From the NCBI GenBank assembly GCA_964590435.1, contig CAZPWT010000005.1:67470-131469 (forward strand): a stretch of 64,000 bases of DNA. Direction: 5' to 3'. The position numbers and the translations under genes were made by a program. Below, in pieces: positions 25,032 through 43,532 of this stretch (the first letter of the stretch is position 1; every line of letters begins with the position of its first letter). The notes beneath the pieces are model-generated. The model made no database searches. It saw nothing but the letters and a program-made list of their open reading frames with translations, and was not told where the DNA came from. This DNA is from an uncultured Planctomycetia bacterium (GTDB taxonomy: Bacteria > Planctomycetota > MHYJ01 > WSZJ01).

Positions 25032-26189
25032 TTAGATCATCCGCGGCTTGCGCTCCGGCTTCTTCTCGCCGCCGCCCTCGCCGCGCGCCTTCTTCATCAT
25101 CGCCCTCAGCTCTTCCAGCTCCGCGCGCAGTTTCTCGGCCACTTCCTTGCGCCCGTTCTCCTTCGCCTGCCGGATCTGGTTCTCGACCTCGTCGATGCGG
25201 CGCTCGATCTTCGCCACCGCCTCCGCCCTCCGGCGCTCGACGTTCTCCTTTTCGCCGCCGGTCAGCTCGTGCATCAGCCCCTCAATCGCCTGCCGAAGTT
25301 CCCGGGCGCGCTCGCGCTCCCCGCCCGCCTCCGCCTTCTTGAGCTCCGCACGAAGCAGCTCGACTTTCTCCTTCATCGCCGCGCGCCGCTCGTCCTGGCC
25401 ACCGTCCTTGCCGGCCGGCGGACGATTGCCGCCGTCGCGGCCCTTCTCCATCTCCTGCATCGCGTTCTTCAGGCGCTGGAGGCCGTTGCGCAGCTCCTCG
25501 GCGCGCTTCTTGTCTCCCTTTTCCTCCGCATCGCGAAGGGCCCTGTGGAGTTCCTCGGCCTTGGCGCGGAGCTCGTCGGCGTGGCGCTGCATCTCGGCGC
25601 GATCCGGGCCCATCCCCGGGCCGGGCCCCTGCATGTCGTCGTGCCTACGAGGTTCGCCGCCAGGGCCCGGGCCGCCGGGCCGCGGGCCGCCGTCCTTGGC
25701 CTGCCGCTGCTTCTGCTCGAGGTGCTCCATCTGGAGGCGCACCGTCTCGAGCTCGAACTTCAGGTTCTGCATCTGGTGCTCGATCTCGCGCGCCTTCATG
25801 CGAAGCTGGAATTTCTGCTCTTCGATCTGCTCCGGCCCGCCGCCGGGCATTCCGCCCGGGCCACCCGGGCCGCCGGGACGAGGACCTCCGGGTCCCTGCG
25901 GGCCGCCCGGGCCCATGCCGGGGCCGCCGTCGCGCCCGGGACCGCCAGGGCCGCCCTCGCGCCCCGGGCCACCCGCCCTGGGGCCGCCGTCACGACCGTC
26001 CGGGCCCATCCCCGGACGCGGACCGCGGTCGCCGGGACGTCCGCCCTCCCGGTCCATCTCCCTCTCCATCTGCTCCATCCGCCCCCTCTGCTCATCCATG
26101 CCGGGGTCGCGCGGACGCGGTTCCTCCGCAGTCGCGGAGAACGGAAGAATCGAAGCGGTCGTCAGGATGACGGAGTGAATCCAGCGCAT
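25032..26189 (-). CDS. Secreted Gly/Pro-rich plus charged coiled-coil protein, last gene downstream of gspJ
   Basis: Signal peptide MRWIHSVILTTASILPFSATA; RPGGPGGPGG-type repeats; a long E/R/K-rich heptad region (ELRAKAEELHRALRDAEEKGDKKRAEELRNGL...). Confidence 0.6.
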   Translation of the reverse strand: MRWIHSVILTTASILPFSATAEEPRPRDPGMDEQRGRMEQMEREMDREGGRPGDRGPRPGMGPDGRDGGPRAGGPGREGGPGGPGRDGGPGMGPGGPQGPGGPRPGGPGGPGGMPGGGPEQIEEQKFQLRMKAREIEHQMQNLKFELETVRLQMEHLEQKQRQAKDGGPRPGGPGPGGEPRRHDDMQGPGPGMGPDRAEMQRHADELRAKAEELHRALRDAEEKGDKKRAEELRNGLQRLKNAMQEMEKGRDGGNRPPAGKDGGQDERRAAMKEKVELLRAELKKAEAGGERERARELRQAIEGLMHELTGGEKENVERRRAEAVAKIERRIDEVENQIRQAKENGRKEVAEKLRAELEELRAMMKKARGEGGGEKKPERKPRMI

Positions 26190-26278: not shown

Positions 26279-26968
26279 TCAATGGACGGGAGCCATCTCC
26301 ATCACGTACTTCTTCTCCGCCGCCTGCGCGTCCTTCTTCGCCAGCTCGGCGTCCGGGACCAGCACGAGCGTGATTCTCACGATCTGGGGAAGCGCCTTCT
26401 TCTGGGCGTCCTGGTCGCCCCAGGTCGCGAGCCAATCCTTGCCGTCCCAGTACTCCAGCTTCAGCGTCTTCACGCGCTTGTACATTTCCTGCAGCGTCCC
26501 GCCGGTCGCGGGCTTGTCGTCAACGTACGGGTCCTCGCGGCGCACGAGGATCTGCACCGAGGTGTCGTCGGGATTCGTCCGGAGGAAATACCCGACCTCG
26601 CAGAAGTCCGCGACGCGCTTCGTCGTCGGGTCCCACACGTCGCGCGACGAGATGAAATCGAGCGTGTCGGCATCGCCGGCGCCCTGCGAGTTGTCCTTTC
26701 CCGTGAAATACGCCGGGTTTTCCGGCGCAGGCTCCCCCTCCGCCGGCGGCGGCTGGTCGGGGACCGGCGGCACGAACGCGGCCGCAATGTCGTCCGACAT
26801 CAGCTTCAGGATCACCGGACCCGCTTCGTCGATCTCCGCCGTGCGCTCGAGCCGCGTGCGGGTCTGAAGCGTCGCGACGAGGACGCCGTAGATGATTCCG
26901 ATCATGATCGCGGTGATCGTGACGGTGAGGAGGACCTCCAGCAGCGTGAACCCGGCGGCGCGCTTCAT
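26279..26968 (-). CDS. gspJ: Type II secretion minor pseudopilin GspJ-like
   Basis: MKRAAGFTLLEVLLTVTITAIMIGIIYG prepilin N-terminus; ~229 aa; last in the G-H-I-J order. Confidence 0.7.
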   Translation of the reverse strand: MKRAAGFTLLEVLLTVTITAIMIGIIYGVLVATLQTRTRLERTAEIDEAGPVILKLMSDDIAAAFVPPVPDQPPPAEGEPAPENPAYFTGKDNSQGAGDADTLDFISSRDVWDPTTKRVADFCEVGYFLRTNPDDTSVQILVRREDPYVDDKPATGGTLQEMYKRVKTLKLEYWDGKDWLATWGDQDAQKKALPQIVRITLVLVPDAELAKKDAQAAEKKYVMEMAPVH

Positions 26969-27420
26969 CGCCCGCCTCCCCCGCCGCCGCCCTCGGGCGC
27001 CGCGTCGTCTTCCTTCAGGAGCCGGTACCACTGCGCCTGCGAGACGCGCTGCGTCCCGTCGGGGAGCTGCTGCGTCACCTTGACCGTGATCTTCCACATC
27101 TCGCGCGGATGGTCGTCGTCCACCTTCTCGATCGCGTCCATCGTGACCTTCTCGGTCAGCCGCTCCCATGAGGCGGTCGGCTCTTCCTCGAACGTCCCCG
27201 ACTCGGTCCCCTCCTTCACGTCGTCGATCTTCACCTCTTCGTAGTCGCCGACCTTCTGCTGCAGCAGCCCCCACGACGTCCGGAGCTGCTTCGCCTGCGT
27301 CACGTGCTCGATCGCGCGCGTCCGCATGTACAGCAGCGCGAAGACCGTCGTCGACACGATCGCCAGCGCGAGCATGACCTCGAGCAGGGTGAACCCGGCG
27401 TCGCGGCGGATGCGGATCAT
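26965..27420 (-). CDS. gspI: Type II secretion minor pseudopilin GspI-like
   Basis: MIRIRRDAGFTLLEVMLALAIVSTTVFAL; ~151 aa; ATGA overlap with gspJ. Confidence 0.7.
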   Translation of the reverse strand: MIRIRRDAGFTLLEVMLALAIVSTTVFALLYMRTRAIEHVTQAKQLRTSWGLLQQKVGDYEEVKIDDVKEGTESGTFEEEPTASWERLTEKVTMDAIEKVDDDHPREMWKITVKVTQQLPDGTQRVSQAQWYRLLKEDDAAPEGGGGGGGR

Positions 27421-28013
27421 TCGGCCGCCGCCTCGAGCGAGACCGGGTCGACGTGCCCTTCCTTCAGGTCCACGAACCCCGTCACCGGGCTCGCCACGAT
27501 CGTGAACTTCGAGTTGTCCTCCTCGCCCGTGATCCAGATCGTGTGGCTCCGGATCGAGCCGTACGGCGTGCACTCCACCGTCACCGGCATCACCTCCGCC
27601 GCCTGCTCCGCGCTCCACACGATCTTCTCGAACTTCACCCCGTCCGGGAGCTTCCGCTCCATCGTCCGCACCCACTTGTACTCCGCGTCCTTGAACGCGT
27701 TCTCCGCCGTGTCCGCAGGCTCTTCCTCGTCCCCCGACTGGTTCACCTTCTCCGGCGACAGGATCCAGTACGTCTTGTTCGGCACGTCGTACTGGATGTA
27801 GTGCGGCATGCCGGTGCTCATGGCGGAAGCGCGGGCCAGGCGCAGCTCGGAGGCGATTTCGCGCACGCAGGAGCGGACCCTGTAGCGCGGCAGGAGATTG
27901 TCGATGCGCCCCACAGTCACGAGCAGCAGGACGCCCATGATCACGAGCACGACCGACAGCTCGATCAGCGTGTACCCGCCCTGCCGGCCGGCGGAACGGC
28001 GGAATGCGCGCAT
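27417..28013 (-). CDS. gspH: Type II secretion minor pseudopilin GspH-like
   Basis: GGYTLIELSVVLVIMGVLLLVTVG prepilin N-terminus; 198 aa; ATGA overlap with gspI. Confidence 0.7.
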   Translation of the reverse strand: MRAFRRSAGRQGGYTLIELSVVLVIMGVLLLVTVGRIDNLLPRYRVRSCVREIASELRLARASAMSTGMPHYIQYDVPNKTYWILSPEKVNQSGDEEEPADTAENAFKDAEYKWVRTMERKLPDGVKFEKIVWSAEQAAEVMPVTVECTPYGSIRSHTIWITGEEDNSKFTIVASPVTGFVDLKEGHVDPVSLEAAAE

Positions 28014-28032
28014 GGCGGTGCCCTCGGGGGCT

Positions 28033-28485
28033 CTACTTCTTCTGCTCGTCGTCCATCGTCCAGTAGCTCAGGTCGGCGTCGAACCCCTCGCCCCCCTGCT
28101 GGTTGTCCGCGCCGTACGCGATGATGTCGAACTCTTTGCCGTTGTCCGCGGGCTTCTTGAAGATGTAATCCGAACCCCACGGATCCTTCGGCACCTTCTC
28201 CAGGTACCCGCCCTCCGGCCAGTCCTTCGCGAACGACGGCCGGTTCACCAGGTCCTCCATCGCGTCCGGGTACCGGTTCTGCTCCATCTTGAACAGCTTC
28301 ACCTGGTCCGCGATGTGCTTGATGTCGCCCTTCGCCCGCGTCACCTTCGCCTTGTCGGCGCGCGACACCAGCACGGGCGTCACGGCGGCGGCCAGCACCC
28401 CGATGATCACCAGCACGATCATCAGTTCCATCAGCGTGAAGCCGCTGTTGGCGCGGCGGATATTGCGGCGGTCGCGGCGAAGCAT
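28033..28485 (-). CDS. gspG: Type II secretion major pseudopilin GspG
   Basis: NSGFTLMELMIVLVIIGVLAAAVTP; conserved DPWGSDY box; 150 aa; perfect RBS AGGAGG 6 nt upstream. Confidence 0.88.
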   Translation of the reverse strand: MLRRDRRNIRRANSGFTLMELMIVLVIIGVLAAAVTPVLVSRADKAKVTRAKGDIKHIADQVKLFKMEQNRYPDAMEDLVNRPSFAKDWPEGGYLEKVPKDPWGSDYIFKKPADNGKEFDIIAYGADNQQGGEGFDADLSYWTMDDEQKK

Positions 28486-28663
28486 GAATCCTCCTGGTTA
28501 CTGCGGTTGACCCGTCATTGTACGCCCGCTCCGTCCCGCGGGCCTCTGGAGATTCAACGAGCGGCGCGCGGGGACGTTGGGTGGGAAGCGGATTTTCCTG
28601 GAGGAACCGTTGGCGGGCGAAATGCGCGCACTCGGTCGAGAGCCCCTTCCAATCCCACTCAAC

Positions 28664-28700
28664 CTTCGACTTTCGACCTTCGACGCATTCTTCGACGCCT
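28664..28700. repeat. GTCGAAGG-family repeat copy between gspF and gspG
   Basis: ccttcgactttcgaccttcgacgcattcttcgacgcc: the reverse-complement form of the GTCGAAGG units, with a short internal inverted repeat (gtcgaagaatgcgtcgaag). Confidence 0.65.
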
Positions 28701-28703
28701 TCC

Positions 28704-29930
28704 CTACATGTTCGACAGATCCAGGATCGGCAGGAGCACCGCCATCACGATGAACCCGACCACGACCGCCATCACCACGATCATGATCGGCTCGATCAGG
28801 CTCGTGACCTTCTGCGTCGTCAGCTCCATCTCCTCGTCGTACGACTGCGACACCTTCCGAAGCATCTGCTCCAGCTGCCCCGATTCCTCGCCGATCGCGA
28901 CCATGTAGCAGACCGTCGGCGGGAAGAGCTTCGATTGCTTGAGCGGCGCGCTGATGTCCGAGCCTTCCATGACGCGGCCGCGGACCTTGGCGATGACCTC
29001 GGCCAGGACGACGTTGCCCATGATGCGCTCGGTGATGGAGAGCGCTTCCATGACGGGCAACCCGGATTCCAGCAGCGTGGCGAGAGTGGAGGCGAAGCGG
29101 GAGATGGCGGCCTTGCGGAAGAGTTCGCCGAGGGCGGGGACGCGGAGGATGAAGCCGTCCCAGGCGCGGCGGCCGTTGGTGGTGTTGGTGAAGAGCTTGA
29201 AGGCGATCCAGGCGGCGACGAGGCCGCCGAGGAGGAACGGCCAGTAGCCGCGGAGGATGTTGGTGATGGTGACGAGGATGACGGTGGGGAGGGGCATCGC
29301 GATCTTCTGCTTCTCGAGCACGTCGAGGATGCGGGGGACGACGACGCCGAGGAGGAAGGTGACGACGCCGACGCCGACGACGCACATGACGAGGGGGTAG
29401 GTGAGGGCGGCCATGACCTTGCCGGCGAGGCGGTTCTGCTGGTGCATGTAGTCGGCGAGGCGGGTGAGGATCTGGTCGAGGCTGCCGGAGGCTTCGCCGG
29501 AGCGGACCATGTTGACGTAGAGGTCGCCGAAGTAGGCGGGGTGGTTGGCGAGGGCGTCGGCGAAGGTGGAGCCCTGGCCGATGCGTTCGCGGACGTCGCG
29601 CATGACGGCGTTGATCTTCGCGTTGCCGGTCTGCTCGATGATGGCCTTCATGGCCTCGTTGAGCGGGGTGCCGGCCCCGAGGAGGGTGGCGAGCTGGCGC
29701 GTGACGAGGGCGATCTCGATGGGGCTCTTGCGCTGCGCGAACTTCGGCAGGAACGCCATCCGCTTCTTCTGGGCCTCGGCCTTGACGCCCTGGACGACGG
29801 CGTCGAGCTGCGTGACGTGGAGGTTCTGCATCCGCAGCTTCGAGCGGGCCTCGCGCGGGGAATCGGCATCGATGACGCCGATCGCGGCGTCGCCGGATTC
29901 CTTGATGGCTTTGTAGCTGAAGACGGGCAT
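28704..29930 (-). CDS. gspF: Type II secretion inner-membrane platform protein GspF
   Basis: 408 aa; duplicated GspF/PilC cytoplasmic domains (QLATLLGAGTPL ... TLATLLESGLPV) and three TM segments. Confidence 0.88.
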   Translation of the reverse strand: MPVFSYKAIKESGDAAIGVIDADSPREARSKLRMQNLHVTQLDAVVQGVKAEAQKKRMAFLPKFAQRKSPIEIALVTRQLATLLGAGTPLNEAMKAIIEQTGNAKINAVMRDVRERIGQGSTFADALANHPAYFGDLYVNMVRSGEASGSLDQILTRLADYMHQQNRLAGKVMAALTYPLVMCVVGVGVVTFLLGVVVPRILDVLEKQKIAMPLPTVILVTITNILRGYWPFLLGGLVAAWIAFKLFTNTTNGRRAWDGFILRVPALGELFRKAAISRFASTLATLLESGLPVMEALSITERIMGNVVLAEVIAKVRGRVMEGSDISAPLKQSKLFPPTVCYMVAIGEESGQLEQMLRKVSQSYDEEMELTTQKVTSLIEPIMIVVMAVVVGFIVMAVLLPILDLSNM

Positions 29931-29953
29931 GCGGTTGGGGCGGGCTTTGCCTT

Positions 29954-30053
29954 TTGAAAGACGTCGAAGGTCTAAGGTCGAAGGTTAACCGCGTCCGAAC
30001 GGGAGCCGGCATTGCTCGGGCCGGCCTTCGACTTTCGACCTTCGACCTTCGAC
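29954..30053. repeat. GTCGAAGG-family inverted repeat between gspE and gspF
   Basis: tgaaagacgtcgaaggtctaaggtcgaagg ... ccttcgactttcgaccttcgaccttcgacg (30-nt arms, 40-nt spacer). Confidence 0.8.
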
Positions 30054-30057
30054 GCCG

Positions 30058-31764
30058 TCATACAACGTCCATCTGCGTCACCCGGATGACTTCCTCGATC
30101 GTCGTCCTTCCTTCCAGCACCTTCAGCGCCCCGTCCATCCGGAGCGTCCTCAGGCCCACCTTCACGGCGTCCTGCTTGATGAGCGTCGAGCTGACCTTCG
30201 AGACCACCTGGTCGCGGACGTGGTCGGTGATCGGCAGGATCTCGTAGATGCCGGTGCGGTCGTGATACCCCGTGCCGAGGCACCGGTCGCAGCCGCGGCC
30301 CTTCCAGAGCGTCATCTTCGGACAGCGCTCGGGGGAGAGGCCGATCGAGAAGAGGTCCTCGGGGGTCACGGGCTGCGGCTCCTTGCAGCCGGGGCAGATG
30401 AGGCGGACGAGGCGCTGGGCGATGACGCCGATCAGGGACGACGCGACGAGGTACGGCTCGACGCCGAGGTCGAGCAGTCGCGTGATGGCGCCGGCGGCGT
30501 CGTTCGTGTGGAGGGTGCTGAACACGAGGTGGCCCGTGAGCGACGACTGGATCGCGATGTCGGCGGTTTCGCCGTCGCGGATTTCGCCGACCATGATGAT
30601 GTTCGGGTCCTGGCGCACGATCGACCTCAGCCCCGTCGCGAACGTCAGCCCCTTCTTCGGCGAAACCTCGATCTGGCTGATCCCCTGGATGTGGTATTCG
30701 ACCGGGTCCTCGATCGTGATCACGTTTTTCGCGGTCGAATTGATCGTCTTCAGCGCCGAGTACAGCGTCGTGGACTTCCCCGACCCCGTCGGCCCCGTCA
30801 CGAGAAGGACCCCGTGCGAGCACTTCACCAGCTTGCTCATCGTCCCGTACTGCATCTCGTCGAGGCCCAGCTCGCGCAGGTCGAGCAGGCGGCCGCTCTT
30901 GTCGAGCAACCGCATGACGATGCGCTCGCCGTTCGACGTCGGCACGCTCGAGATACGCACGTCCACGTCGTTGTCGCCCACCTTGATCGTCGCGCGGCCG
31001 TCCTGCGGCAGCCGCCGCTCCGCGATGTCCATCTTCCCCATGATCTTGATGCGGCTGATGATCGCGTCCTGGATCTTCTTCGGCGGCGTCATCATGTCGT
31101 ACAGGATGCCGTCGATGCGGTACCGCACCTGCAGCTTCTCCTCGTACGGCTGGATGTGGATGTCGCTGGCGCGCATCTTCAGCGCCTGGAACATGATCAT
31201 GTTCACCAGCTTGATGATCGGCGCCTTGTTCGCCATGTCGAGGAGGTCGTGCCCCTCCTCGAGCTCGCGCGCCAGCCCGGCCATCTCGTCGTCCTCGAGG
31301 TCCTCCAGCATCTCGTCGACGACGTCCATCTTCTTCTGGTACGCCTTGTTGATCAGCGCCGTGATCTCGCTCTTCGGCGCCAGCACGATCGTCACCGTCT
31401 TCCCCACCATCAGCGCCAGCTCGTCGAGCGGGTGGAAGTCGAACGGGTTGCACGTCACCACGCGGATCGCCCCGTTCTCCTCGCCGATCCCCACCAGGTT
31501 GTGGCTCCGCGCGAACTGCACCGGCACCGCTTCCACGAACGCCGCCGGCACTTCCGCGTCCCCCAGCCGGTCCATCAGCGGCGCCGCAAGGGCCTTCGAG
31601 AACGCCTTCAGCATCTGCTTCTCGTTCAGGAACCCCCGGGTCAGCAGCACCCGGTCGATCGGTTCACGCGACTCCGTGGAAACGGCGAAGGCCTCGTCCA
31701 CCTTCGTGTCGGCGAGGCCGCCGTCCTCCACCAGCGCTTTGCGGAACCGCTCGAGCAGCAGCAT
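30058..31764 (-). CDS. gspE: Type II secretion ATPase GspE
   Basis: Walker A LLVTGPTGSGKSTTLYSAL; Asp/His boxes; tetracysteine CPGCK...CDRCLGTG zinc motif. Confidence 0.92.
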   Translation of the reverse strand: MLLLERFRKALVEDGGLADTKVDEAFAVSTESREPIDRVLLTRGFLNEKQMLKAFSKALAAPLMDRLGDAEVPAAFVEAVPVQFARSHNLVGIGEENGAIRVVTCNPFDFHPLDELALMVGKTVTIVLAPKSEITALINKAYQKKMDVVDEMLEDLEDDEMAGLARELEEGHDLLDMANKAPIIKLVNMIMFQALKMRASDIHIQPYEEKLQVRYRIDGILYDMMTPPKKIQDAIISRIKIMGKMDIAERRLPQDGRATIKVGDNDVDVRISSVPTSNGERIVMRLLDKSGRLLDLRELGLDEMQYGTMSKLVKCSHGVLLVTGPTGSGKSTTLYSALKTINSTAKNVITIEDPVEYHIQGISQIEVSPKKGLTFATGLRSIVRQDPNIIMVGEIRDGETADIAIQSSLTGHLVFSTLHTNDAAGAITRLLDLGVEPYLVASSLIGVIAQRLVRLICPGCKEPQPVTPEDLFSIGLSPERCPKMTLWKGRGCDRCLGTGYHDRTGIYEILPITDHVRDQVVSKVSSTLIKQDAVKVGLRTLRMDGALKVLEGRTTIEEVIRVTQMDVV

Positions 31765-33854
31765 TACTTCTTCTCCCCGCCGGAACCCTTCTTGAACGGG
31801 CTGTGGAACTCAAACAGGTCCGCCGAGTTCGGCTCGAACTGCCCCAGCATGTGCTTGCCGACCCACTTCTTCGACAGCCGGAAGATCGAGTTCTGCTTCG
31901 ACAGCGTCAGGCGCTTGAAGTCGGTGAAGTCGGGGTCGCTGAGGATGATCGGGGTGATGAAAAGGTACAGGGTGACCTTGGTGCCGTCGCGGACGGTGCG
32001 CTGGAAGAGCTGCCCGAGGAGGGGGATGTCCTCGAGGATCGGGATACCGGTGGTGGTCTCGCTGATCTGGTCGCTCACGAGGCCGCCGATGACGACGGTG
32101 TAGGTGTTGGGGAGCGTGACCTTGGTGATGACGGAGCGGTTCGTGATGGGTGGCGGCACCGTGGAATCCGCCGAGGGGCGGGCCTGGAACTGGGAGACCG
32201 TGAGATCGACCTCGAGCTGCAGGTAGTTGTCGGCAGAGATGTGCGGCGTGATCTTGAGCGTGATGCCCGCGGACGTCGTGCTGCCGCTTCCCGCGGTCAC
32301 GACGCCTGTCGTGGTCGTCGTGGTGACGGTGGTCACGACCTCGGTCAGCGTGAGGGTCGCGGCCTCGTTGTCGTTCGTGGTCACCTGCGGGAGGGAAAGG
32401 ACGTTGATCTTGCGCTTGGCGCTCATGGCGTGGAGCAGGACGGGGAGCTTCCCGGCCGCGCCACGGATGAGGCCCGTCGTGAGGCCCGGGAGGCCGTCGT
32501 TGGGGACCTTGATGTCCGGGATGCTGTCACCGTCGGTGTCGGTCAGGACGCCGAGGCCGAAGTTCGCGTTGGCGAAGCCGCGCGTCCGGCCGTCCGCCGG
32601 GTTGGCGGCCGCCGCCAGCTCGAACCCGAGGTCGAACTGGTCGTTGTCGTTGACCTCGAAGATCGCCGCCTCGATGACCACCTGCGGGCGGCGCTTGTCC
32701 AGCTCGGCGATGAAGACCTCCATCGCGTCCCAGACCTCGGGGGTGGCGACGACGAGAAGAGCGTTGTTCTGCAGGTCCGCCGTGATGGACACCTGGACCT
32801 GCTGGTTCGGCGGCGTCGCGGTCCCGACGGCGGCGTCCGCGCCCCGCGCCGGCTGGTTCGCCCCGCCGCGCGGCTGCGATGTGTTGCTCGTCCCGCCACC
32901 GAAGATCGACTGCAGGACCGTCGCCAGCGTTTCCGCCCTCGCATGCTTGAGCCGGTACACGTGCAGGTTCGTCGGCGAGCGCTCCGGCCGGATGTCGAGC
33001 TTCATGATCATGTCCTTGATCTGCACCATGCGGTCGGGCAGCGCCAGGACGATGAGCGAGTTCGTGCGGAAGTCCGACCCGATCGACACCTGCTCCTGCT
33101 GCGGCACCGGAACGCCGGGACGCGGCGGCTGGGCGCGCTGAAGCGTCTGGACGAGCTGGTTGAGCTTCGGCTCGAGCTCCGTGGCGCTCGCGAACCGCAG
33201 CGAGATCACCTCGAGCAGCACGTCCGGCTGCTTGCGGTCGATCATCGCGATGATCAACTGGATGCGCTTCACGTTGATCGCGTAGTCCGTGATGATGATG
33301 GCGTTGAGCGTTTCGCTGGCGAGGACGTTGCGCGGGTCGGACAGCAGGGCCTGCGCCGGGGCGAGGATGTCGCGCGCGCTGGCGTACTTGAGCGCGATCA
33401 CCGCCGTGACCATCTGGTCGCGCGACAGCAGCTTGTCGGCCGCCTCGCCGGGCACGAACGGCACGCCGTTCTTGGAGCTTTCCTCGCGCTTCACGATCGT
33501 GATGACCTCGATCGTCGGCTTGCCGCGCTCGATCTCGAGCTGCTTCGGCACGAGCGCGAGCTGCATGTTGGACAGGACCGACTCGAACAGCAGGAACACG
33601 CCGCTCTCCGGCACCTGCATCGCCCGCGACAGGTTCACCGGCGGCTTCGCCTTCAGCGCTTCCTTGTCGTAGATGAACGCCTTCCCGGTCAGGTTCGAGA
33701 CCATCACGATCAGGTTCTCGATCGTGACGCCGTTCCAGTCGACCTCGATCATCTGCTCGGGCTTCTCCGGCTCCTTCGGCGGCTCGGGGGCCTGCGCGGA
33801 AGCCACGTTCGCCAGCAAGCCGACCAGCGAGGCCACGGCCAGGTAACGCTTCAT
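31764..33854 (-). CDS. gspD: Type II secretion outer-membrane secretin GspD
   Basis: Signal peptide MKRYLAVASLVGLLANVASA; N0 domain (VDWNGVTIENLIVMVSNLTGKAFIYD...VNLSRAMQVPESGVFLLFESVLSNMQLALV); C-terminal secretin domain (VVIGGLVSDQISETTTGIPILEDIPLLGQLFQRT). TAATG overlap with gspE. Confidence 0.9.
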   Translation of the reverse strand: MKRYLAVASLVGLLANVASAQAPEPPKEPEKPEQMIEVDWNGVTIENLIVMVSNLTGKAFIYDKEALKAKPPVNLSRAMQVPESGVFLLFESVLSNMQLALVPKQLEIERGKPTIEVITIVKREESSKNGVPFVPGEAADKLLSRDQMVTAVIALKYASARDILAPAQALLSDPRNVLASETLNAIIITDYAINVKRIQLIIAMIDRKQPDVLLEVISLRFASATELEPKLNQLVQTLQRAQPPRPGVPVPQQEQVSIGSDFRTNSLIVLALPDRMVQIKDMIMKLDIRPERSPTNLHVYRLKHARAETLATVLQSIFGGGTSNTSQPRGGANQPARGADAAVGTATPPNQQVQVSITADLQNNALLVVATPEVWDAMEVFIAELDKRRPQVVIEAAIFEVNDNDQFDLGFELAAAANPADGRTRGFANANFGLGVLTDTDGDSIPDIKVPNDGLPGLTTGLIRGAAGKLPVLLHAMSAKRKINVLSLPQVTTNDNEAATLTLTEVVTTVTTTTTTGVVTAGSGSTTSAGITLKITPHISADNYLQLEVDLTVSQFQARPSADSTVPPPITNRSVITKVTLPNTYTVVIGGLVSDQISETTTGIPILEDIPLLGQLFQRTVRDGTKVTLYLFITPIILSDPDFTDFKRLTLSKQNSIFRLSKKWVGKHMLGQFEPNSADLFEFHSPFKKGSGGEKK

Positions 33855-34609
33855 TTGTTGGTCCCTTTGTCGATCTTGAACCGGAGGTTGAGGGGAAGGA
33901 CGAGCTCGCCGTTCTCGATCACCAGCTTCTGCCGCTGCAGCTCCGGCGCTTCCAGGACGCCGAAGTCCAGCACGCGCTTCTCACCGTTGCATTCGTACTC
34001 GAGGATCGGTTCGCCCTTGTCGGTGTAGCCGAGGAGGCGGATGCGGACTTCGGGAAGGGGGATGCGGGCGTCGAGGCCGGCGGCGGCGGGGGCCTCGGGG
34101 AGGCGCCACGGGGCGATGGTCGCGGTATCGACGGGGACCGGGGGGACGGGAAGGCCGCCCGAGGTCACGGAAGAGCGTTCTCCGGCGCGGACGGTCACGT
34201 TTCCCTGGCCGCCGGTGAGGAGGACCGTGCCCTCGACGACTTCGACCGAGAGCCGGCGGCCGCGCGACGGCAGGCGCGGCGCGGTCGACTCCTTGCGCGT
34301 GAACGGCACCAGCTTCCACGCGCCGTCCTTCGACGGCACCAGCGTGATCGACTGCGTCAGCTCGAGCGTCACGCCGAACGCGAGGAACACTTCCTCCGGC
34401 GTCCCGTTCTTCACGAACGTCAGCGTCTTCCCTTCCAGCATCGCCGGCGTGGACTCAAACTTCCGCCCCGTCGCCTGCTCCACGTCCTTCAGCGCTTCGG
34501 CCAGCGGCCGGTCGCGCCTGTCGACGCTGACCCGCCCGCCCGGCTCGCCGGCGACCATGATCCCGCCCGCGAGCGCCGCCGCCGCCACCAGTCGCAGCAT
34601 CGTTTTCAT
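33851..34609 (-). CDS. Secreted STN-like (secretin/TonB N-terminal) domain protein; possible GspC-analogue or FecR partner
   Basis: Start MKTMLRLVAAAALAGG at 34609 (ATGA overlap with the anti-sigma stop); LAEALKDVEQATGRKFESTPAMLEGKTLTF resembles an STN/N0 fold; ATGA overlap with the gspD start. Confidence 0.55.
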   Translation of the reverse strand: MKTMLRLVAAAALAGGIMVAGEPGGRVSVDRRDRPLAEALKDVEQATGRKFESTPAMLEGKTLTFVKNGTPEEVFLAFGVTLELTQSITLVPSKDGAWKLVPFTRKESTAPRLPSRGRRLSVEVVEGTVLLTGGQGNVTVRAGERSSVTSGGLPVPPVPVDTATIAPWRLPEAPAAAGLDARIPLPEVRIRLLGYTDKGEPILEYECNGEKRVLDFGVLEAPELQRQKLVIENGELVLPLNLRFKIDKGTNK

Positions 34610-35301
34610 CAGCGGTACTCCAGGTGGAATTTGGTCCCGATGACTTCGATCGACCCCTCGCGTTCCGCCGACTCGAACCGCAGCCGGCCCTTGTCGCGCG
34701 GCGTCACCTCGGCCCAGAGCTCGCCGTACACCAGCATCACGCTCGGCGCCGCCAGGTCCGACCGGTTGATCATGATCTGCGACCCGTCCGCCAGCACGAT
34801 CAGGTCCCGCGCCCCGGACCGGAACCACACGCGCCCGCCGTTCGTCAGCACGCGGTCCCCCATCCGGATCGTCGTCCCCGTCGCCAGCGGCTCCCAGGTG
34901 GAACCGTCGGCCTTCATGAGAAGCGCCTCTCCGCGGACGTCCTCGGCCTTGAGCTCGTACGCCGGCGCGGCGCGGCCGATGCGGCCGGTCGCGACGCCCC
35001 ACGTCCCGAAGACCAGGAACAGCACGGCGGCGGCGAGCCCGAAGCGGAACCCGGAGTGGCCGCGCGGCTTGACGGCGCGCGATTCGTCGCCGGACGCCGC
35101 GGCCATCGCCGCCACGACGCGCGTCCGCCGCGTCGCGCTCGGCTCCGCCGCCACGGGCAGCTTCTCCGCGATGCGCAGCGTCCTCTCGAGATGCGCCCGC
35201 TCCGCGCGGCACCCCTCGCAGCCCTTCAAATGCTCCACCAGCGCGTCCCGTTCGGCGCCTTCAAGGTCGCCGAGGACCATCGCCGGCAGCAGCTTTTTCA
35301 T
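34609..35301 (-). CDS. Anti-sigma factor: N-terminal zinc-finger anti-sigma domain, TM helix, periplasmic FecR-like domain
   Basis: MKKLLPAMVLGDLEGAERDALVEHLKGCEGCRAERAHL (HxxxCxxC zf-HC2 type); TM FGLAAAVLFLVFGTWGV; C-terminal GDRVLTNGGRVWFRSGARDLIVLADGSQIMINRSDL (FecR-like). Confidence 0.75.
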   Translation of the reverse strand: MKKLLPAMVLGDLEGAERDALVEHLKGCEGCRAERAHLERTLRIAEKLPVAAEPSATRRTRVVAAMAAASGDESRAVKPRGHSGFRFGLAAAVLFLVFGTWGVATGRIGRAAPAYELKAEDVRGEALLMKADGSTWEPLATGTTIRMGDRVLTNGGRVWFRSGARDLIVLADGSQIMINRSDLAAPSVMLVYGELWAEVTPRDKGRLRFESAEREGSIEVIGTKFHLEYR

Positions 35302-35312
35302 CTCTACGCAGC

Positions 35313-35915
35313 TCACAGCGCCGCCTCCGCTTCTCCGCCCTGCCCGGCACGGACCAGTTCGCCCAGCGCCTGCATCGCCTCGTGCACCCGGAATTTCGCC
35401 GTCCCGACCGGGCAGTCCGTGATTTCCGCGATCTCCTTGTAGGACAGGCTGTGGTAGACGCGGAGGATCAGGGCTTCCTTCTTCACGGGCGGCAGTTGCG
35501 ACACGCATTCCCGCACCCGCAGCTCTTCCTCCGTCAGCTCGGCGCGGTCCTCGGGGGCCAGCCCGCCGTCGCGCAGCACGTCCTGCAGGTACAGCACCTT
35601 CCCGCCTTCCTCGCCCACGGGCGAGTCCATCGACGTCATCCGGACCTTCTTCACGCGCTTGATGTGGTCGAGGCACAGGTTGCGCGCGATCGTGTACAGC
35701 CACGTCGAGAACGCCCCCTCCGGCCGGTACGTCCTCAGGTTCTTCAGCACCCGCAGGAATGTCTCCTGGAACAGATCCTCCGCCAGCGCCCGGTCGTCAA
35801 CGTACCGCACGATGAACTGGATCAGCGGCCGTTCGAAGCGCTCCACCAGCTCGCGGAACGCGGCGTTGTCACCGCGCTCGCAGCGCTTGAGGAGGTCGCG
35901 TTCTTCCGGGCTCAT
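35313..35915 (-). CDS. ECF-subfamily sigma-70 factor
   Basis: Region 2 DLFQETFLRVLKNLRTY / STWLYTIARNLCLD; region 4 SYKEIAEITDCPVGTAKFRVHEA; 200 aa. Confidence 0.88.
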   Translation of the reverse strand: MSPEERDLLKRCERGDNAAFRELVERFERPLIQFIVRYVDDRALAEDLFQETFLRVLKNLRTYRPEGAFSTWLYTIARNLCLDHIKRVKKVRMTSMDSPVGEEGGKVLYLQDVLRDGGLAPEDRAELTEEELRVRECVSQLPPVKKEALILRVYHSLSYKEIAEITDCPVGTAKFRVHEAMQALGELVRAGQGGEAEAAL

Positions 35916-35989
35916 CGGGGGGCTCCGCTGGGGACCGAGGTTTAACGAGCGGGACTGGAAGGAGTTGGGGAATTCGGCGAAACGGGAGC

Positions 35990-36651
35990 CTATCGCGCGC
36001 AGCGGGGATACGGGCTGGAAAAGGGGGGAAGCGCCGCATGCGCGTCCCGAGCGGGATCGGGCGTGGCCACGGGGTGGTCCTCCACCTGCAGGAGTTCGAC
36101 GAGCGCCCGCCGCACCGCGTGCGCCTGCGACTCGGGGCCTGCGACCACCATGAAGGGAAGATCGAGGCGGGACCAGTCGTTCGCAGTGTCCTCAAGGAGG
36201 AACGGGGTGGAACCCTTGCTGGCCTCGGGCCGTCGGACCAATCGGGTAAGTGTCACAGAGGGCGCTGCGGGCCTGCGAATGAAAACCTGCGCGCAGGCAA
36301 GCTCATTGAATGCCAGGACCGATTCCAGCAGTGTATAGACCCCGGATGAGGGCACGTTCACGACGCGGGAGAAATTCACAGGAGGTTTTTGCTCGACTTG
36401 CCGTCGGTCGTACACGAGGACCCGGCCCGTATGAAGGGCCACTCCGTTCACAACTTCGGTCAGTCCGTGCCCGTTCCAATCGATGCGTACCAGGTCGCCT
36501 TCAACCGGTCTAGCCAGCCAATCGGGCACGGCCGGCGACTCGGAAGGCGGCGGGACAGCCGGTTCCGGGCGGCTGACGCAACCGGAACCGAAGCTCAAAA
36601 CCACAGCGAGGAACATCGCCGTCCGGGTCCAGCATGATGCGAGGATCGTCA
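35990..36651 (-). CDS. Lipoprotein carrying a secretin-N0-like domain paralogous to the GspD N-terminus
   Basis: Lipobox MTILASCWTRTAMFLAVVLSFGSGC. The segment LVRIDWNGHGLTEVVNGVALHTGRVLVYDRRQVEQKPPVNFSRVVNVPSSGVYTLLESVLAFNELA aligns by eye at ~50 % identity with GspD MIEVDWNGVTIENLIVMVSNLTGKAFIYDKEALKAKPPVNLSRAMQVPESGVFLLFESVLSNMQLA. Confidence 0.6.
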
Positions 36652-36778
36652 TGCCCTTCCAACGACGCAGCCCGATTTCGGTTGAGAGGCGCCCCTGCAG
36701 AAACACAAAAGGCGCCGCAGGCCGTTGCCCGCAGCGCCTTTCCACCGTTTCCACAATCCACGAACCACGAACCACCAA

Positions 36779-37627
36779 CTACTTCTTCGGCGGCTCCTCC
36801 GCCTTCTTCGGCTCCTCGACCTTCACGCCGAAGAACTTCAGCTTCCCGCGCGCCGTCTTCGCTTCTTCCGAGTCCGGCCAGCGATCGTTCACTTTCTTCC
36901 ACAGCTCGATCGCTTCCTTGCGCTGGTTCTTCTTGGAAAGGTCCGCGGCCTGGGCCATCAGGTCCTTGCGCTCCTTCTCTTCGGCGGCGATCCGCACCTT
37001 CTCGACTGCTTCCTGCGCCTTCACCGCGTCTTCTTTCGCCTTGGCGAGCCCCTCTTCCAGTTTCTTCTGCGCCTCGTCGTACGCCGCCTTGAAGTCGGCG
37101 TTCCCCTCGAGCTGCTTGTACCAGTCGTCCGCGGCCTTGCGCTCGGGGCGGCCTTCGAACCAGTGGCGCAGGTAAACCATCTTGGAAACGGCCGTCTTGA
37201 AGTCCCCGGCCTGCGCCGCGACGGCCATGCCGTTGTGGAGGCCGTAGCAGACTTCCTCGGCGAAAGCGTCGTCATGCGGCTTGCCCTTGCACTCGACCAG
37301 CTTGTTCCCCATCGGGTCCACCAGCATGAGGCGGGGGAAGCTGTCGACGCCGTACTGTTTCGCCGCGGCGGAACCTTCTTTCTCGGCGTTGAGGTGAACG
37401 CACACGAACGCCTTCAGGAACTCCTGGACCTCGGTGCGCGGATACGTATCCGTATCCATCTTCTTGCAGTACTTTCACCAGTCCGTGTAGAAGTCGAGAT
37501 ACATCAGTTTGCCTTCAAGTCCGGCCTTGACCTTCGCCTCCTCGAACGACTTCTCCCAGGCGACGCCGCCGGCGTGGGCGCTGGTGGCGGCAAGAAGGGC
37601 AAAGACGGCTGACGCCAATCGTTTCAT
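36779..37627 (-). CDS. Secreted thioredoxin-fold (DsbD-gamma/TlpA-like) protein with an in-frame TGA replacing the first Cys of CxxC; candidate selenoprotein (UxxC)
   Basis: Read across the TGA at 37475-37477, the frame gives MKRLASAVFALLAATSAHAGG...KLMYLDFYTDW-U-KYCKKMDTDTYPRTEVQEFLKAFVCVHLNAEKEG...YGVDSFPRLMLVDPMGNK. This is the DLYADWCVACK.../...LLGLPT... thioredoxin pattern. The ORF track split it into 36779..37459 plus a cryptic upstream part. Confidence 0.65.
37438..37459 (-). other. Stem-loop 17 nt downstream of the in-frame UGA; candidate bacterial SECIS element
   Basis: mRNA ...UGA AAG UAC UGC AAG AAG AU-GGAUACG-GAUA-CGUAUCC-G: a 7-8 bp stem with a 4-nt loop. The spacing is compatible with bacterial SECIS positioning. 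Confidence 0.4.
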
Positions 37628-42651: not shown

Positions 42652-42845
42652 GGGAGCTCCTGGCACGGGGGCGGGGGATACTTTCGAGGCCGCAACTCTA
42701 GCGGGCGGATATCCCGGCGGTGAAGCGCTTTCCGCCCGCAGGCAGGAGCGCCGAGGTGACGCCGCTTTTCATGCAATATTCCGCGCCACGCGCCGTTGCT
42801 CTTCTGAACGTGGGGGGAGTCCGTTACTCGCAATCGGGAGACATC

Positions 42846-43532
42846 ATGCTTCACCGGATCCTGGCCGGGTTCCTGGCCGCGGCGTTCCTGACCAGCCTGG
42901 TCAGCGCCGAGGGGGAAGGGAAAGACGAGGGCCCGGGCGGCAAGCCGCCGAAGGGCAAGGACGGCGGCCCGGGGCCGAAAGGTCCGCCGCCCCCGGGGTG
43001 CCACTGCGCCTGCGGCTGCCCGGAGGACAAGGGCCCCAAAGGGCCGCCCCCTCCGCCGAAGGACAAGGACGGGAAGCCTCTTCCCCCTCCGGACGGCACG
43101 GAGGACCTGAAGGGCGACGGCGGGGCGCCGCCGCCTCCTCCCCCGCCGAAGGACGATCCGGGCGCACCGCCGCCGAAGGACGGCAAGCGGCCGCCGATGC
43201 CGCCCCCGCCGCCGTGCGGGTGCAAGTGCTGCAAACCGCCGCTTCCGCCGAAGGACGGTGAGAAGCCGCCGCCTCCGCCGAAGGATGGCGACAAGCCCCC
43301 GATGCCTCCCAAGGACGGCGAAAAGCCGCCCCCGCCGCCCAAGGACGGGGACAAGCCGCCGGTGCCGCCCAAGGACGGAGAGAAGCCGCCTCCGCCGCCG
43401 AAGGGCCACGGATGCCCCTGTCATCATCGCCCGCCGCCCCCGCCGCCCAAGGATGGCGAAAAGCCGCCGATGCCCCCGAAGGACGGCGAGAAACCGCCGA
43501 TGCCGCCGCCCGACGAGGGCGAGGACAAGTAA
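42846..43532 (+). CDS. Secreted proline-rich tandem-repeat protein with Cys/His clusters
   Basis: Signal peptide MLHRILAGFLAAAFLTSLVSAEG; about eight 10-aa repeats PPKDGEKPPP / PPKDGDKPPM encoded by a ~30-bp tandem DNA repeat with synonymous drift; GCHCACGCP, CGCKCCKPP and GHGCPCHH clusters. Confidence 0.65.
   Translation: MLHRILAGFLAAAFLTSLVSAEGEGKDEGPGGKPPKGKDGGPGPKGPPPPGCHCACGCPEDKGPKGPPPPPKDKDGKPLPPPDGTEDLKGDGGAPPPPPPPKDDPGAPPPKDGKRPPMPPPPPCGCKCCKPPLPPKDGEKPPPPPKDGDKPPMPPKDGEKPPPPPKDGDKPPVPPKDGEKPPPPPKGHGCPCHHRPPPPPPKDGEKPPMPPKDGEKPPMPPPDEGEDK

What the first reader, a model, noticed from the sequence alone, without database searches (positions are those of the whole stretch)
35990..36651. 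Lipoprotein carrying a paralogue of the GspD N0 domain, immediately upstream of the sigma/anti-sigma-T2SS unit
The lipoprotein segment LVRIDWNGHGLTEVVNGVALHTGRVLVYDRRQVEQKPPVNFSRVVNVPSSGVYTLLESVLAFNELA is ~50 % identical by eye to the secretin N0 domain encoded 2 kb downstream (MIEVDWNGVTIENLIVMVSNLTGKAFIYDKEALKAKPPVNLSRAMQVPESGVFLLFESVLSNMQLA).

A lipidated, free-standing copy of the secretin's periplasmic gate-docking domain is unusual. It could act as a pilotin-like assembly factor, a decoy for the FecR-like anti-sigma or the GspC-analogue, or a scaffold.
Basis: seen in the sequence. Interest (0 to 1): 0.55.

Follow-up and report, generated by a model that had tools for sequence, protein, structure and literature searches.

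The report
Secretin-derived N0 lipoprotein beside T2SS regulator
A small, fast-evolving membrane-anchored protein that copies the docking (N0) domain of the neighbouring type II secretion pore sits, with its own matching promoter, in front of the sigma/anti-sigma pair that appears to switch the secretion system on, so it is most likely a signalling or accessory partner of that machine rather than a pore.

Summary
Residues 54-152 match the N0 region of the GspD secretin encoded about 2.1 kb downstream (39% identity over 101 aa, E 5e-22; profile comparison 99.6%). An AlphaFold model (pLDDT 81-94 over residues 41-190) finds T2SS secretin N0 domains as its top PDB matches.

- **Distribution:** only about 9 sequences exist in public data, all from Planctomycetota. 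Wherever context is available they lie directly upstream of ECF sigma, zf-HC2/FecR anti-sigma, a 252-aa protein, secretin and GspE/F/G.
- **Transcription:** a terminator lies upstream of the gene. Its promoter-like motif, CAAC-N15-TCGTT, recurs before the sigma gene and gspG (3 sites against 0.28 expected).
- **Evolution:** the protein is 34-59% identical between loci whose neighbours are 83-98% identical. Two near-identical strains carry divergent alleles. dN/dS is about 0.4.

My best reading is a membrane-tethered STN/N0 signalling partner of the FecR-like module, analogous to Pseudomonas VreA-VreI-VreR/Hxc. This function is inferred. A structural, pilotin-like role is a serious rival. I rate it a new variant of a known kind.

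The parts
36707..36742 (-). Intrinsic terminator (16-bp stem, T-rich tail) that ends the upstream thioredoxin-like gene. It makes the lipoprotein gene a separate transcription unit.
   Evidence: the hairpin is also visible in the intergenic alignment
36661..36684 (-). ECF-type promoter-like motif CAAC-N15-TCGTT. It ends 9 nt before the lipoprotein ATG, which implies a leaderless or near-leaderless mRNA (inferred).
   Evidence: 3 sites in the window against 0.28 expected; present before the lipoprotein gene in all 17 related loci
35990..36652 (-). Lipoprotein CDS, 220 aa plus stop (alternative start M13 at 36616)
   Evidence: ORF conserved in about 9 homologues, dN/dS 0.34-0.43
36578..36652 (-). 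Signal peptide and lipobox (F-G-S-G-C25; Cys25 codon at 36578-36580)
   Evidence: Cys and the -1 Gly are invariant; distant members have LAAGC/LFAGC
36227..36496 (-). N0/STN-type domain (residues 53-142), paralogue of secretin N0
   Evidence: E 5e-22; 99.6%; pLDDT 91-94; strands 54-57, 79-82, 98-101, 118-125, 133-140 and helices 64-75, 102-115; top Foldseek hits LspD N0 7pmp and ETEC GspD N0-N1 3oss_D
36083..36175 (-). Conserved extra strand plus helix (residues 160-190, D-[LI]-P-F-x-V-x-G-P...VRRAL) packed on the N0 domain
   Evidence: pLDDT 84-92
35993..36031 (-). Conserved C-terminal tail (...F-x-S-P-[YF]-P-x-C-x-R). It resembles the secretin's own C-terminal tail ADLFEFHSPF, but not significantly.
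   Evidence: tail tests (E about 2; P = 0.12) are inconclusive
35944..35967 (-). Second copy of CAAC-N15-TCGTT, upstream of the ECF sigma gene (presumed autoregulated promoter)
35313..35915 (-). ECF sigma factor (Sigma70_r2 + r4_2)
34609..35316 (-). Anti-sigma factor: zf-HC2, one TM segment, partial FecR domain. Its GTG start overlaps the sigma stop codon.
33851..34609 (-). 252-aa secreted or anchored protein ('p250'). Its N-terminal region is weakly STN/N0-like. A FecR-like strand motif and a C-terminal beta domain follow (read from the sequence by eye, not tested).
   Evidence: Pfam STN E 0.14 in 2 of 5 members; hhalign against the lipoprotein N0, P 4.6e-4, probability 33%
31764..33854 (-). 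GspD secretin. The N0 region homologous to the lipoprotein is residues 35-134, i.e. 33453-33752.
30058..31764 (-). GspE ATPase
28704..29930 (-). GspF platform protein
28556..28579 (-). Third copy of CAAC-N15-TCGTT, upstream of gspG
   Evidence: also before every gspG paralogue in L013, L016 and L017
28033..28485 (-). GspG major pseudopilin. Pseudopilins H/I/J follow at 26279-28013.

Best explanation
SHOWN. The gene encodes a signal-peptide and lipobox protein. Its folded part is an N0/STN-type domain that arose by duplication of the N-terminal roughly 146 residues of the cognate T2SS secretin. It carries no pore domain. It is its own transcription unit, with a terminator upstream. It carries the same CAAC-N15-TCGTT motif as the ECF sigma gene and the gspG operon. 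It is strictly syntenic with sigma, anti-sigma, p250 and the secretin. It is under purifying but relaxed selection and is exchanged between strains as divergent alleles.

INFERRED MECHANISM. The lipoprotein is the membrane-tethered 'signalling-domain' partner of a cell-surface-signalling-like circuit that controls this T2SS.
1. After lipidation at Cys25 it hangs in the periplasm on a Pro-rich tether of about 27 residues.
2. Its N0 domain docks by STN-STN beta-strand augmentation on the periplasmic part of the FecR-like module. Here that module is genetically split into the anti-sigma (zf-HC2/TM/FecR) and p250 (STN-like N-domain). The model is FoxA/PupB signalling domains binding FoxR/PupR, and VreA proposed to bind VreR.
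3. Occupancy sets the stability of the anti-sigma, and hence the activity of the ECF sigma, which transcribes the lipoprotein gene, its own operon (including the secretin, GspE and GspF) and the pseudopilin operon.
4. Because the lipoprotein keeps the conserved core residues of the secretin's N0, the two probably compete for the same partner.
5. Because the lipoprotein is itself sigma-dependent, it would close a feedback loop that couples T2SS expression to the state of the secretin.
For: - Homology to secretin N0.
- Fold.
- Lipobox conserved across the family.
- Gene order lipoprotein, sigma, anti-sigma, p250, secretin, GspE/F/G in 5 lineages and 17 loci, with no counter-example.
- Shared promoter motif before the lipoprotein gene, the sigma gene and every gspG copy. 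There are 3 sites in the window against 0.28 expected, 0 of 100 shuffles reach 3, and the motif is conserved in all loci. AAC...CGT is the usual ECF promoter signature (established knowledge).
- Terminator upstream.
- p250's N-domain is weakly STN/N0-like. The anti-sigma has a FecR domain.
- Literature: STN signalling domains bind the STN subdomain of FecR-type anti-sigmas, and the free signalling domain protects the anti-sigma from proteolysis (PMC11637429). PUMA3 has a barrel-less STN protein VreA encoded as vreA-vreI-vreR directly upstream of the Hxc T2SS genes that VreI induces (PMC2729926).
Against: - No interaction, localisation or expression data exist, so the mechanism rests on analogy.
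- The lipoprotein hits neither the Pfam STN model nor the GspD_N0 model, and homology to VreA could not be tested.
- Being a member of the same regulon as the structural T2SS genes fits a structural subunit equally well.
- The anti-sigma's FecR hit is below Pfam's threshold (21.1 bits against 24), and p250's STN-likeness is weak (probability 33%).
- Lipoprotein variation does not co-vary with p250 or the anti-sigma. Window against L017: p250 94% and anti-sigma 97% identical, lipoprotein 46%. This is not what tight co-evolving partners usually show.
- vreA itself was reported not to be VreI-dependent (PMC2729926).
Confidence: 0.4

Rival explanations
1. Structural or assembly accessory of the T2SS outer-membrane complex. 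An OM-anchored N0 lipoprotein would co-assemble with the secretin, either as an extra peripheral ring like DotD or Xanthomonas VirB7, or as a pilotin-like chaperone that escorts or stabilises secretin protomers via N0-N0 or tail contacts.
For: - Lipobox without Asp at +2, which is OM-type by E. coli rules (established knowledge; not validated in Planctomycetota).
- Co-regulated with structural T2SS genes through the shared motif.
- N0 domains oligomerise, and lipidated N0 proteins form rings in T4SSs (PMC3093366).
- No pilotin, GspC, GspL or GspM was recognised among the cluster ORFs scanned.
- The conserved C-terminal tail looks like the secretin's own tail (not significant).
Against: - The secretin, including its N0 and tail, is 83-91% conserved and nearly invariant in N0, while the lipoprotein is 34-59% identical.
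- The gene always sits at the sigma/anti-sigma end of the cluster, not next to the secretin.
- There is no similarity to any known pilotin family.
- A 27-residue tether from the OM would not reach the level of an assembled secretin's N0 ring (inference from known GspD dimensions).
Confidence: 0.3
2. Decoy or conflict interface. The lipoprotein would be a sacrificial mimic of the secretin's N0 that soaks up an antagonist targeting secretin N0 (a phage or competitor protein), or it would itself be surface-exposed and under diversifying selection.
For: - The allele is replaced between otherwise 99-100% identical strains: lipoprotein dS 0.35 against 0.01-0.03 for neighbours.
- It is the fastest-evolving gene of the locus in all pairs.
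- GC3 is atypically low in every lineage.
Against: - dN/dS is 0.34-0.43 overall and below 1 in every region, including linkers, so there is no signal of positive selection.
- The N0 core is the best-conserved part.
- No antagonist is known.
Confidence: 0.1
3. Non-functional relic. The gene would be a decaying 5' fragment left by a partial tandem duplication of the secretin gene.
For: - It derives from the secretin's N-terminus.
- One family member (L015/P0009) carries an extra fragment homologous to secretin residues 412-489 (E 4e-11; strongest over about 428-470).
- Low GC3 and fast divergence.
Against: - The ORF is intact in all roughly 9 lineages.
- dN/dS is about 0.4, not 1.
- The lipobox, 22 core positions and the C-terminal tail are invariant.
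- It has its own conserved promoter motif and an upstream terminator.
- A lipobox has been gained in place of the secretin's ordinary signal peptide.
Confidence: 0.04

Closest known systems
Pseudomonas aeruginosa PUMA3 cell-surface signalling system VreA-VreI-VreR, upstream of the Hxc T2SS (PMC2729926)
   Same: - The gene order matches: a small exported protein with an STN-fold domain and no beta-barrel, then an ECF sigma, then a FecR-type anti-sigma, directly next to T2SS genes.
- In Pseudomonas those T2SS genes are shown to belong to the sigma regulon. Here that is inferred from the promoter motif.
   Different: - VreA resembles TonB-dependent-transducer signalling domains and has a TolA/TonB-like C-terminal domain. 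It is mostly soluble in the periplasm, and vreA was not VreI-dependent.
- Here the domain is a paralogue of the cognate secretin's N0, is lipidated, has a different C-terminal part, and carries the regulon motif.
- The FecR-like module appears split into two genes.
- The phylum is Planctomycetota.
- Sequence homology to VreA was not tested.
N-terminal signalling domain (STN) of TonB-dependent transducers binding FecR/PupR/FoxR anti-sigma factors (PMC11637429)
   Same: - The fold class is the same (STN/N0).
- The proposed STN-STN beta-augmentation contact with a FecR-type anti-sigma is the same.
- The free signalling domain is functional and protects the anti-sigma.
   Different: - There is no TonB-dependent barrel, TonB box or siderophore logic here.
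- The domain derives from a secretin, not from a transducer.
- There is no Pfam STN hit.
Lipoproteins with an N0 domain in type IV secretion: Xanthomonas VirB7 (XAC2622) and Legionella DotD (PMC3093366)
   Same: They share the layout: signal peptide, lipobox, flexible tether, then a stand-alone N0 domain, as an accessory of an envelope-spanning secretion machine.
   Different: - Those proteins belong to T4SS core complexes (VirB9/VirB10; DotC/DotH) and show no sequence similarity to secretins.
- Here the context is a T2SS plus an ECF module, and the domain is a recognisable paralogue (39% identity) of the secretin's own N0.
T2SS pilotins (PulS/GspS, AspS), the PilP lipoprotein and liposecretins such as HxcQ (own knowledge)
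   Same: They are small lipoproteins, or lipidated secretins, that act on secretin targeting or docking.
   Different: - Pilotins have unrelated folds and bind the S-domain.
- PilP carries an HR domain that binds N0 rather than being an N0.
- Liposecretins keep the pore.
- The lipoprotein here has no Pfam match to any of these.
Eukaryotic mitochondrial T2SS GspDN1-3 proteins (PMC8134430)
   Same: They are periplasmic ring domains of the secretin encoded as separate polypeptides.
   Different: - Those are Secretin_N (N1-N3 type) domains from a split gene, and that system lacks N0.
- Here an N0 copy exists in addition to a full-length secretin.

Membership tests
Secretin N0 / STN domain superfamily | Significant sequence similarity to the N0 domain of a bona fide secretin | tested here: met
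   BLASTP E 5e-22, 39% identity over 101 aa. hhalign 99.6%, E 3e-24. The secretin passes TIGR02517 GspD over residues 39-642.
Secretin N0 / STN domain superfamily | Match to the curated Pfam models (PF21305 type_II_gspD_N0 or PF07660 STN) above threshold | tested here: not met
   The lipoprotein has no Pfam hit at E <= 0.1. Even the cognate secretin's N0 scores only 22.5 bits against GA 27.
Secretin N0 / STN domain superfamily | N0 fold: two helices packed against a two-stranded and a three-stranded beta-sheet | tested here: met
Secretin (GspD) proper | C-terminal Secretin pore domain (PF00263) and Secretin_N ring domains | tested here: not met
   Neither domain is found in the lipoprotein. 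Homology ends at secretin residue 146. It is not a secretin.
Bacterial lipoprotein (Lgt/LspA substrate) | Signal peptide ending in a lipobox with an invariant Cys | tested here: met
   Cys25 and Gly at -1 are invariant in all 8 members that have an N-terminus. Distant members have canonical LAAGC or LFAGC; the window has FGSGC, which fits the PROSITE PS51257 core pattern, but the first basic residue is at position 10.
Bacterial lipoprotein (Lgt/LspA substrate) | Actual acylation and membrane localisation | not testable with these tools
   This needs globomycin or palmitate labelling and fractionation.
VreA-type (PUMA3) barrel-less CSS receptor | Exported stand-alone STN-fold protein encoded directly upstream of an ECF sigma and a FecR-type anti-sigma, next to a T2SS | tested here: met
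   The gene order is conserved in 5 lineages. For the domains. The FecR hit of the anti-sigma is sub-threshold (21.1 bits against 24).
VreA-type (PUMA3) barrel-less CSS receptor | Sequence homology to VreA, including the TolA/TonB-like C-terminal domain | not tested
   No VreA sequence is available in the tools. No TonB_C or TolA Pfam hit was found in the lipoprotein. In the AF2 model the C-terminal part is a single strand plus helix and then a disordered tail.
T2SS pilotin (PulS/OutS, AspS) | Homology to a pilotin family, or demonstrated S-domain binding | tested here: not met
   There is no Pfam or NCBIfam pilotin hit. Binding is not testable here.
DotD / VirB7-N0 lipoproteins | Association with T4SS core genes (VirB9/VirB10 or DotC/DotH) | tested here: not met
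   No T4SS genes appear in the window cluster or in the 12-21 kb related loci.

The most novel reading that the evidence does not exclude
The T2SS secretin itself acts as the transducer of a cell-surface-signalling pathway. Its N0 (STN) ring would contact a genetically split FecR-type anti-sigma (the anti-sigma plus p250). The secretin-derived lipoprotein would be a sigma-induced, membrane-tethered competitive mimic of that N0, closing the feedback loop. Its rapid allelic turnover would reflect conflict at this interface. That would be a direct functional bridge between the two halves of the 'Secretin/TonB N-terminal' domain family.
Probability: 0.2. Interest if true: 0.8.

Novelty: new variant of a known kind. 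Interest (0 to 1): 0.55.

Why it matters
STN/N0 domains occur both in secretins and in TonB-dependent transducers that signal to FecR-type anti-sigma factors. Whether a secretin N0 can play the signalling role has not been shown. This locus places three elements side by side in one predicted regulon: a secretin-derived N0 domain, an ECF sigma with a FecR-like anti-sigma, and the cognate secretin. It offers a compact, testable system for how a bacterium might couple T2SS expression to the state of its outer-membrane pore. It also extends the PUMA3-type architecture beyond Proteobacteria, defines an unannotated protein family, and gives a candidate ECF promoter for a Planctomycetota T2SS regulon.

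Tried and rejected
1. The first AlphaFold run, on the 4-sequence alignment, gave pLDDT 34 and was unusable. It was replaced by a 10-row alignment.
2. The single-protein scan of GTDB genomes and the metagenome scan with A1 found nothing. A2 was too divergent for pattern design.
3. The third homologue search, with the secretin N-terminus, returned no hits, so the N0 alignment could not be deepened.
5. Profile searches of the lipoprotein and of p250 against PDB sequences gave nothing meaningful.
6. I tested whether the lipoprotein's C-terminal tail is homologous to the secretin's C-terminal tail. A tail HMM ranks all five secretin C-termini near the top of the noise, but at E about 2. The hhalign second-best local alignment is exactly tail to tail, but P = 0.12. 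I report this as suggestive only.
7. Concerted evolution or gene conversion with the cognate secretin is rejected. Each lipoprotein is no closer to its own secretin than to the others'.
8. Positive selection is not supported. pN/pS is below 1 in all regions and pairs.
9. A diversity-generating retroelement as the cause of variability was considered and dropped. No reverse transcriptase appears in the gene lists of the 12-21 kb loci, and differences are spread over the whole gene, synonymous sites included.
10. BLASTP of p250 against the secretin or the lipoprotein shows nothing. Only profile comparison gives a weak signal.

Full report
OBSERVATION. It encodes 220 aa: MTILASCWTRTAMFLAVVLSFGSGC25, a Pro-rich stretch (26-52), and then a region that BLASTP aligns to the secretin encoded at 31764..33854 (minus). 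Lipoprotein 54-152 aligns with secretin 35-134 at 39% identity over 101 aa, E 5e-22. The secretin is a bona fide GspD (TIGR02517 363.5 bits against a cut-off of 351; Secretin_N and Secretin domains). The lipoprotein itself has no Pfam or meaningful NCBIfam hit.

FAMILY AND GENE REALITY. A word-indexed search of 5.8 billion proteins found only the protein itself (annotated from M13, 208 aa) and three homologues of about 60% identity. An exhaustive HMM search of 1.84 billion cluster representatives added five more distant members (P0005-P0009) and a fragment. The only secretin it found was the cognate secretin cluster. A profile search added nothing further.

The family is therefore about nine sequences, all from Planctomycetota/Planctomycetia MAGs or metagenomes, and all annotated as hypothetical. 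Across them the following are invariant:
- the Cys with Gly at -1, with canonical LAAGC or LFAGC lipoboxes in distant members;
- 15 core positions of the N0 region;
- G172, V180 and R181;
- a C-terminal S-P-x-P...R tail.

Pairwise dN/dS is 0.34-0.43 and stays below 1 in every sub-region. This is a real, constrained gene, not a decaying fragment.

CONTEXT. The minus-strand order in the window is as follows:
- a thioredoxin-like gene (36779..37627) followed by a terminator (36707-36742);
- the lipoprotein;
- an ECF sigma (35313..35915);
- a zf-HC2/TM/FecR anti-sigma (34609..35316);
- a 252-aa protein, 'p250' (33851..34609);
- GspD, GspE and GspF;
- GspG and the pseudopilins.

The block lipoprotein, sigma, anti-sigma, p250, secretin, GspE/F/G is kept in four further lineages: L001/L007, L013, L016 and L017. 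It is also kept on every short contig that carries a family member. A p250-based scan of 185,579 species genomes found only three loci, all of this type. No instance of the module without the lipoprotein was found, but the clade is very small.

PROMOTER MOTIF. Alignment of the intergenic regions from six loci shows a conserved CAAC-N15-TCGTT both upstream of the lipoprotein gene and upstream of the sigma gene. The window has exactly three matches, all on the minus strand and all intergenic within this cluster: 36661-36684 (lipoprotein), 35944-35967 (sigma) and 28556-28579 (gspG). The expectation is 0.28, and 0 of 100 shuffles reach 3. All 17 related loci carry the motif before the lipoprotein and sigma genes. 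L013, L016 and L017 carry it before each gspG paralogue.

An 'AAC...CGT' pair with this spacing is the common ECF promoter signature, and ECF sigma genes are commonly autoregulated (established knowledge). I therefore infer that the lipoprotein gene, the sigma operon and the pseudopilin operon form one ECF regulon. In the window group and in L017 the TCGTT ends 9 nt before the ATG, which implies a leaderless or near-leaderless mRNA (inference). This also argues that translation starts at M1, or at M13, and not further upstream.

EVOLUTION. The lipoprotein is by far the most variable gene of the locus. It is 34-59% identical between lineages in which sigma is 92-98%, the secretin 83-91% and GspE 91-97% identical. 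For window against L017 the figures are lipoprotein 46%, against sigma 98%, anti-sigma 97% and p250 94%.

L001 and L007 are 99-100% identical in DNA from the sigma gene through the secretin (dS 0.01-0.03). Inside the lipoprotein gene, from codon 33 onward, dS is 0.35 and the proteins are 76% identical. That pattern indicates allele replacement by recombination rather than merely faster protein evolution. GC3 is depressed in every lineage (0.61-0.84 against 0.85-0.97 for the neighbours). Each lipoprotein is no closer to its own secretin than to the other lineages' secretins. This points to one old duplication without gene conversion. One member (L015/P0009) continues for 70 codons that are homologous to secretin residues 412-489 (E 4e-11, strongest over about 428-470), a second trace of secretin ancestry. 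A chimeric 1-kb contig cannot be excluded.

THE TAIL. The conserved C-terminus reads, for example, DLFRFRSPYPQCLR in P0005 and LPPFSSPYPRCAR in the window. It resembles the invariant secretin C-terminus ADLFEFHSPFKKG. hhalign's second-best local alignment is exactly this pair, but P = 0.12. A tail HMM scores the secretin C-termini at E about 2 among 1,142 ORFs. This is suggestive and not established.

MECHANISM. In cell-surface signalling, the STN signalling domain of a TonB-dependent transducer binds the STN subdomain of a FecR-type anti-sigma. The free signalling domain can bind the anti-sigma and protect it from proteolysis (PMC11637429). P. aeruginosa PUMA3 has a barrel-less STN protein, VreA, encoded as vreA-vreI-vreR immediately upstream of the Hxc T2SS genes that VreI induces (PMC2729926). 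The present locus has the same layout.

Here p250 may supply the STN-like partner. Its residues 19-63 align in register with the first strand-helix-strand of the lipoprotein N0 (P 4.6e-4, probability 33%), and two of five p250 orthologues touch Pfam STN (E 0.14). I therefore favour a membrane-tethered signalling or feedback partner of the FecR-like module that mimics the secretin's N0 (confidence about 0.4).

The main rival (about 0.3) is a structural or pilotin-like accessory, by analogy with the N0 lipoproteins DotD and Xanthomonas VirB7 (PMC3093366). Membership of the same regulon as the structural genes fits that rival equally well. The extreme divergence beside a near-invariant secretin, and the constant position at the sigma end of the cluster, weigh somewhat against it. 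A decoy or conflict role (about 0.1) is suggested by the allele turnover, but no positive selection is seen. A dead relic is very unlikely.

NOVELTY. Stand-alone lipidated N0 domains (in T4SSs), barrel-less STN receptors beside a T2SS (PUMA3), and separately encoded secretin N-domains (mitochondrial T2SS, PMC8134430) are all known. A lipidated paralogue of the cognate T2SS secretin's own N0, carrying the regulon's promoter motif and placed in front of an ECF/FecR pair, was not found in the literature searches. I rate it a new variant of a known kind, of moderate interest.

Noticed in passing
window 36779-37627 (-), TGA at 37475-37477: The gene upstream of the lipoprotein is a candidate periplasmic thioredoxin-like selenoprotein.
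- It has a signal peptide and the motif DW-U-KYC, with an in-frame TGA conserved in 5 lineages.
- Annotators split it into 50-aa and 226-aa ORFs.
- With U replaced by C, the read-through product matches Pfam Thioredoxin_7 over 1-83/83 across the TGA (E 3.8e-12).
- A conserved 7-bp hairpin starts 17 nt after the TGA and is a possible SECIS element.
   Followed up: partly
window 33851-34609 (-) and 34609-35316 (-): The FecR-like module looks genetically split. The anti-sigma ends inside the FecR profile (positions 10-81 of 97). The next gene, p250, has its own signal or anchor sequence and a weakly STN-like domain. By eye, a FecR-like strand motif (VEVVEGTVLL..VTVRAGE) and a C-terminal beta domain follow; these two were not tested. 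The split is conserved in 5 lineages.
   Followed up: partly
L015 740-976 (P0009): One family member's ORF runs on past the conserved tail into about 70 codons that are homologous to secretin residues 412-489 (E 4e-11), right up to the sigma promoter motif. This is either a relic of the secretin duplication or a chimeric 1-kb contig.
   Followed up: partly
L001 872-1071 against L007: A second divergent patch (82-89% DNA identity) lies in the coiled-coil part of the upstream thioredoxin-like gene. It is separated from the divergent lipoprotein gene by about 280 nt of 97-100% identity. This suggests mosaic recombination tracts.
   Followed up: no
window 26279-31764 (-): The T2SS cluster contains D, E, F, G and three minor pseudopilins (H/I/J-like). 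Among the ORFs I scanned there is no recognisable GspC, L, M, K or pilotin. p250 might stand in for GspC.
   Followed up: no
window 25032-26180 (-): Downstream of the pseudopilins lies an exported, Gly/Pro-rich, highly charged coiled-coil protein (MRWIHSVILTTASILPFSATAEE...). Its function is unknown.
   Followed up: no
window 42720-43532 (+): This ORF encodes a secreted protein made of KDG[ED]KPP(M/P)PP proline-rich repeats with Cys-rich segments.
   Followed up: no
L013 3586-9695: In one lineage two Ser/Thr kinase-FGE-sulfatase genes and an MqsA-like antitoxin gene are inserted between the thioredoxin-like gene and the lipoprotein gene. The lipoprotein-to-sigma linkage is therefore tighter than the thioredoxin-to-lipoprotein linkage.
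   Followed up: no
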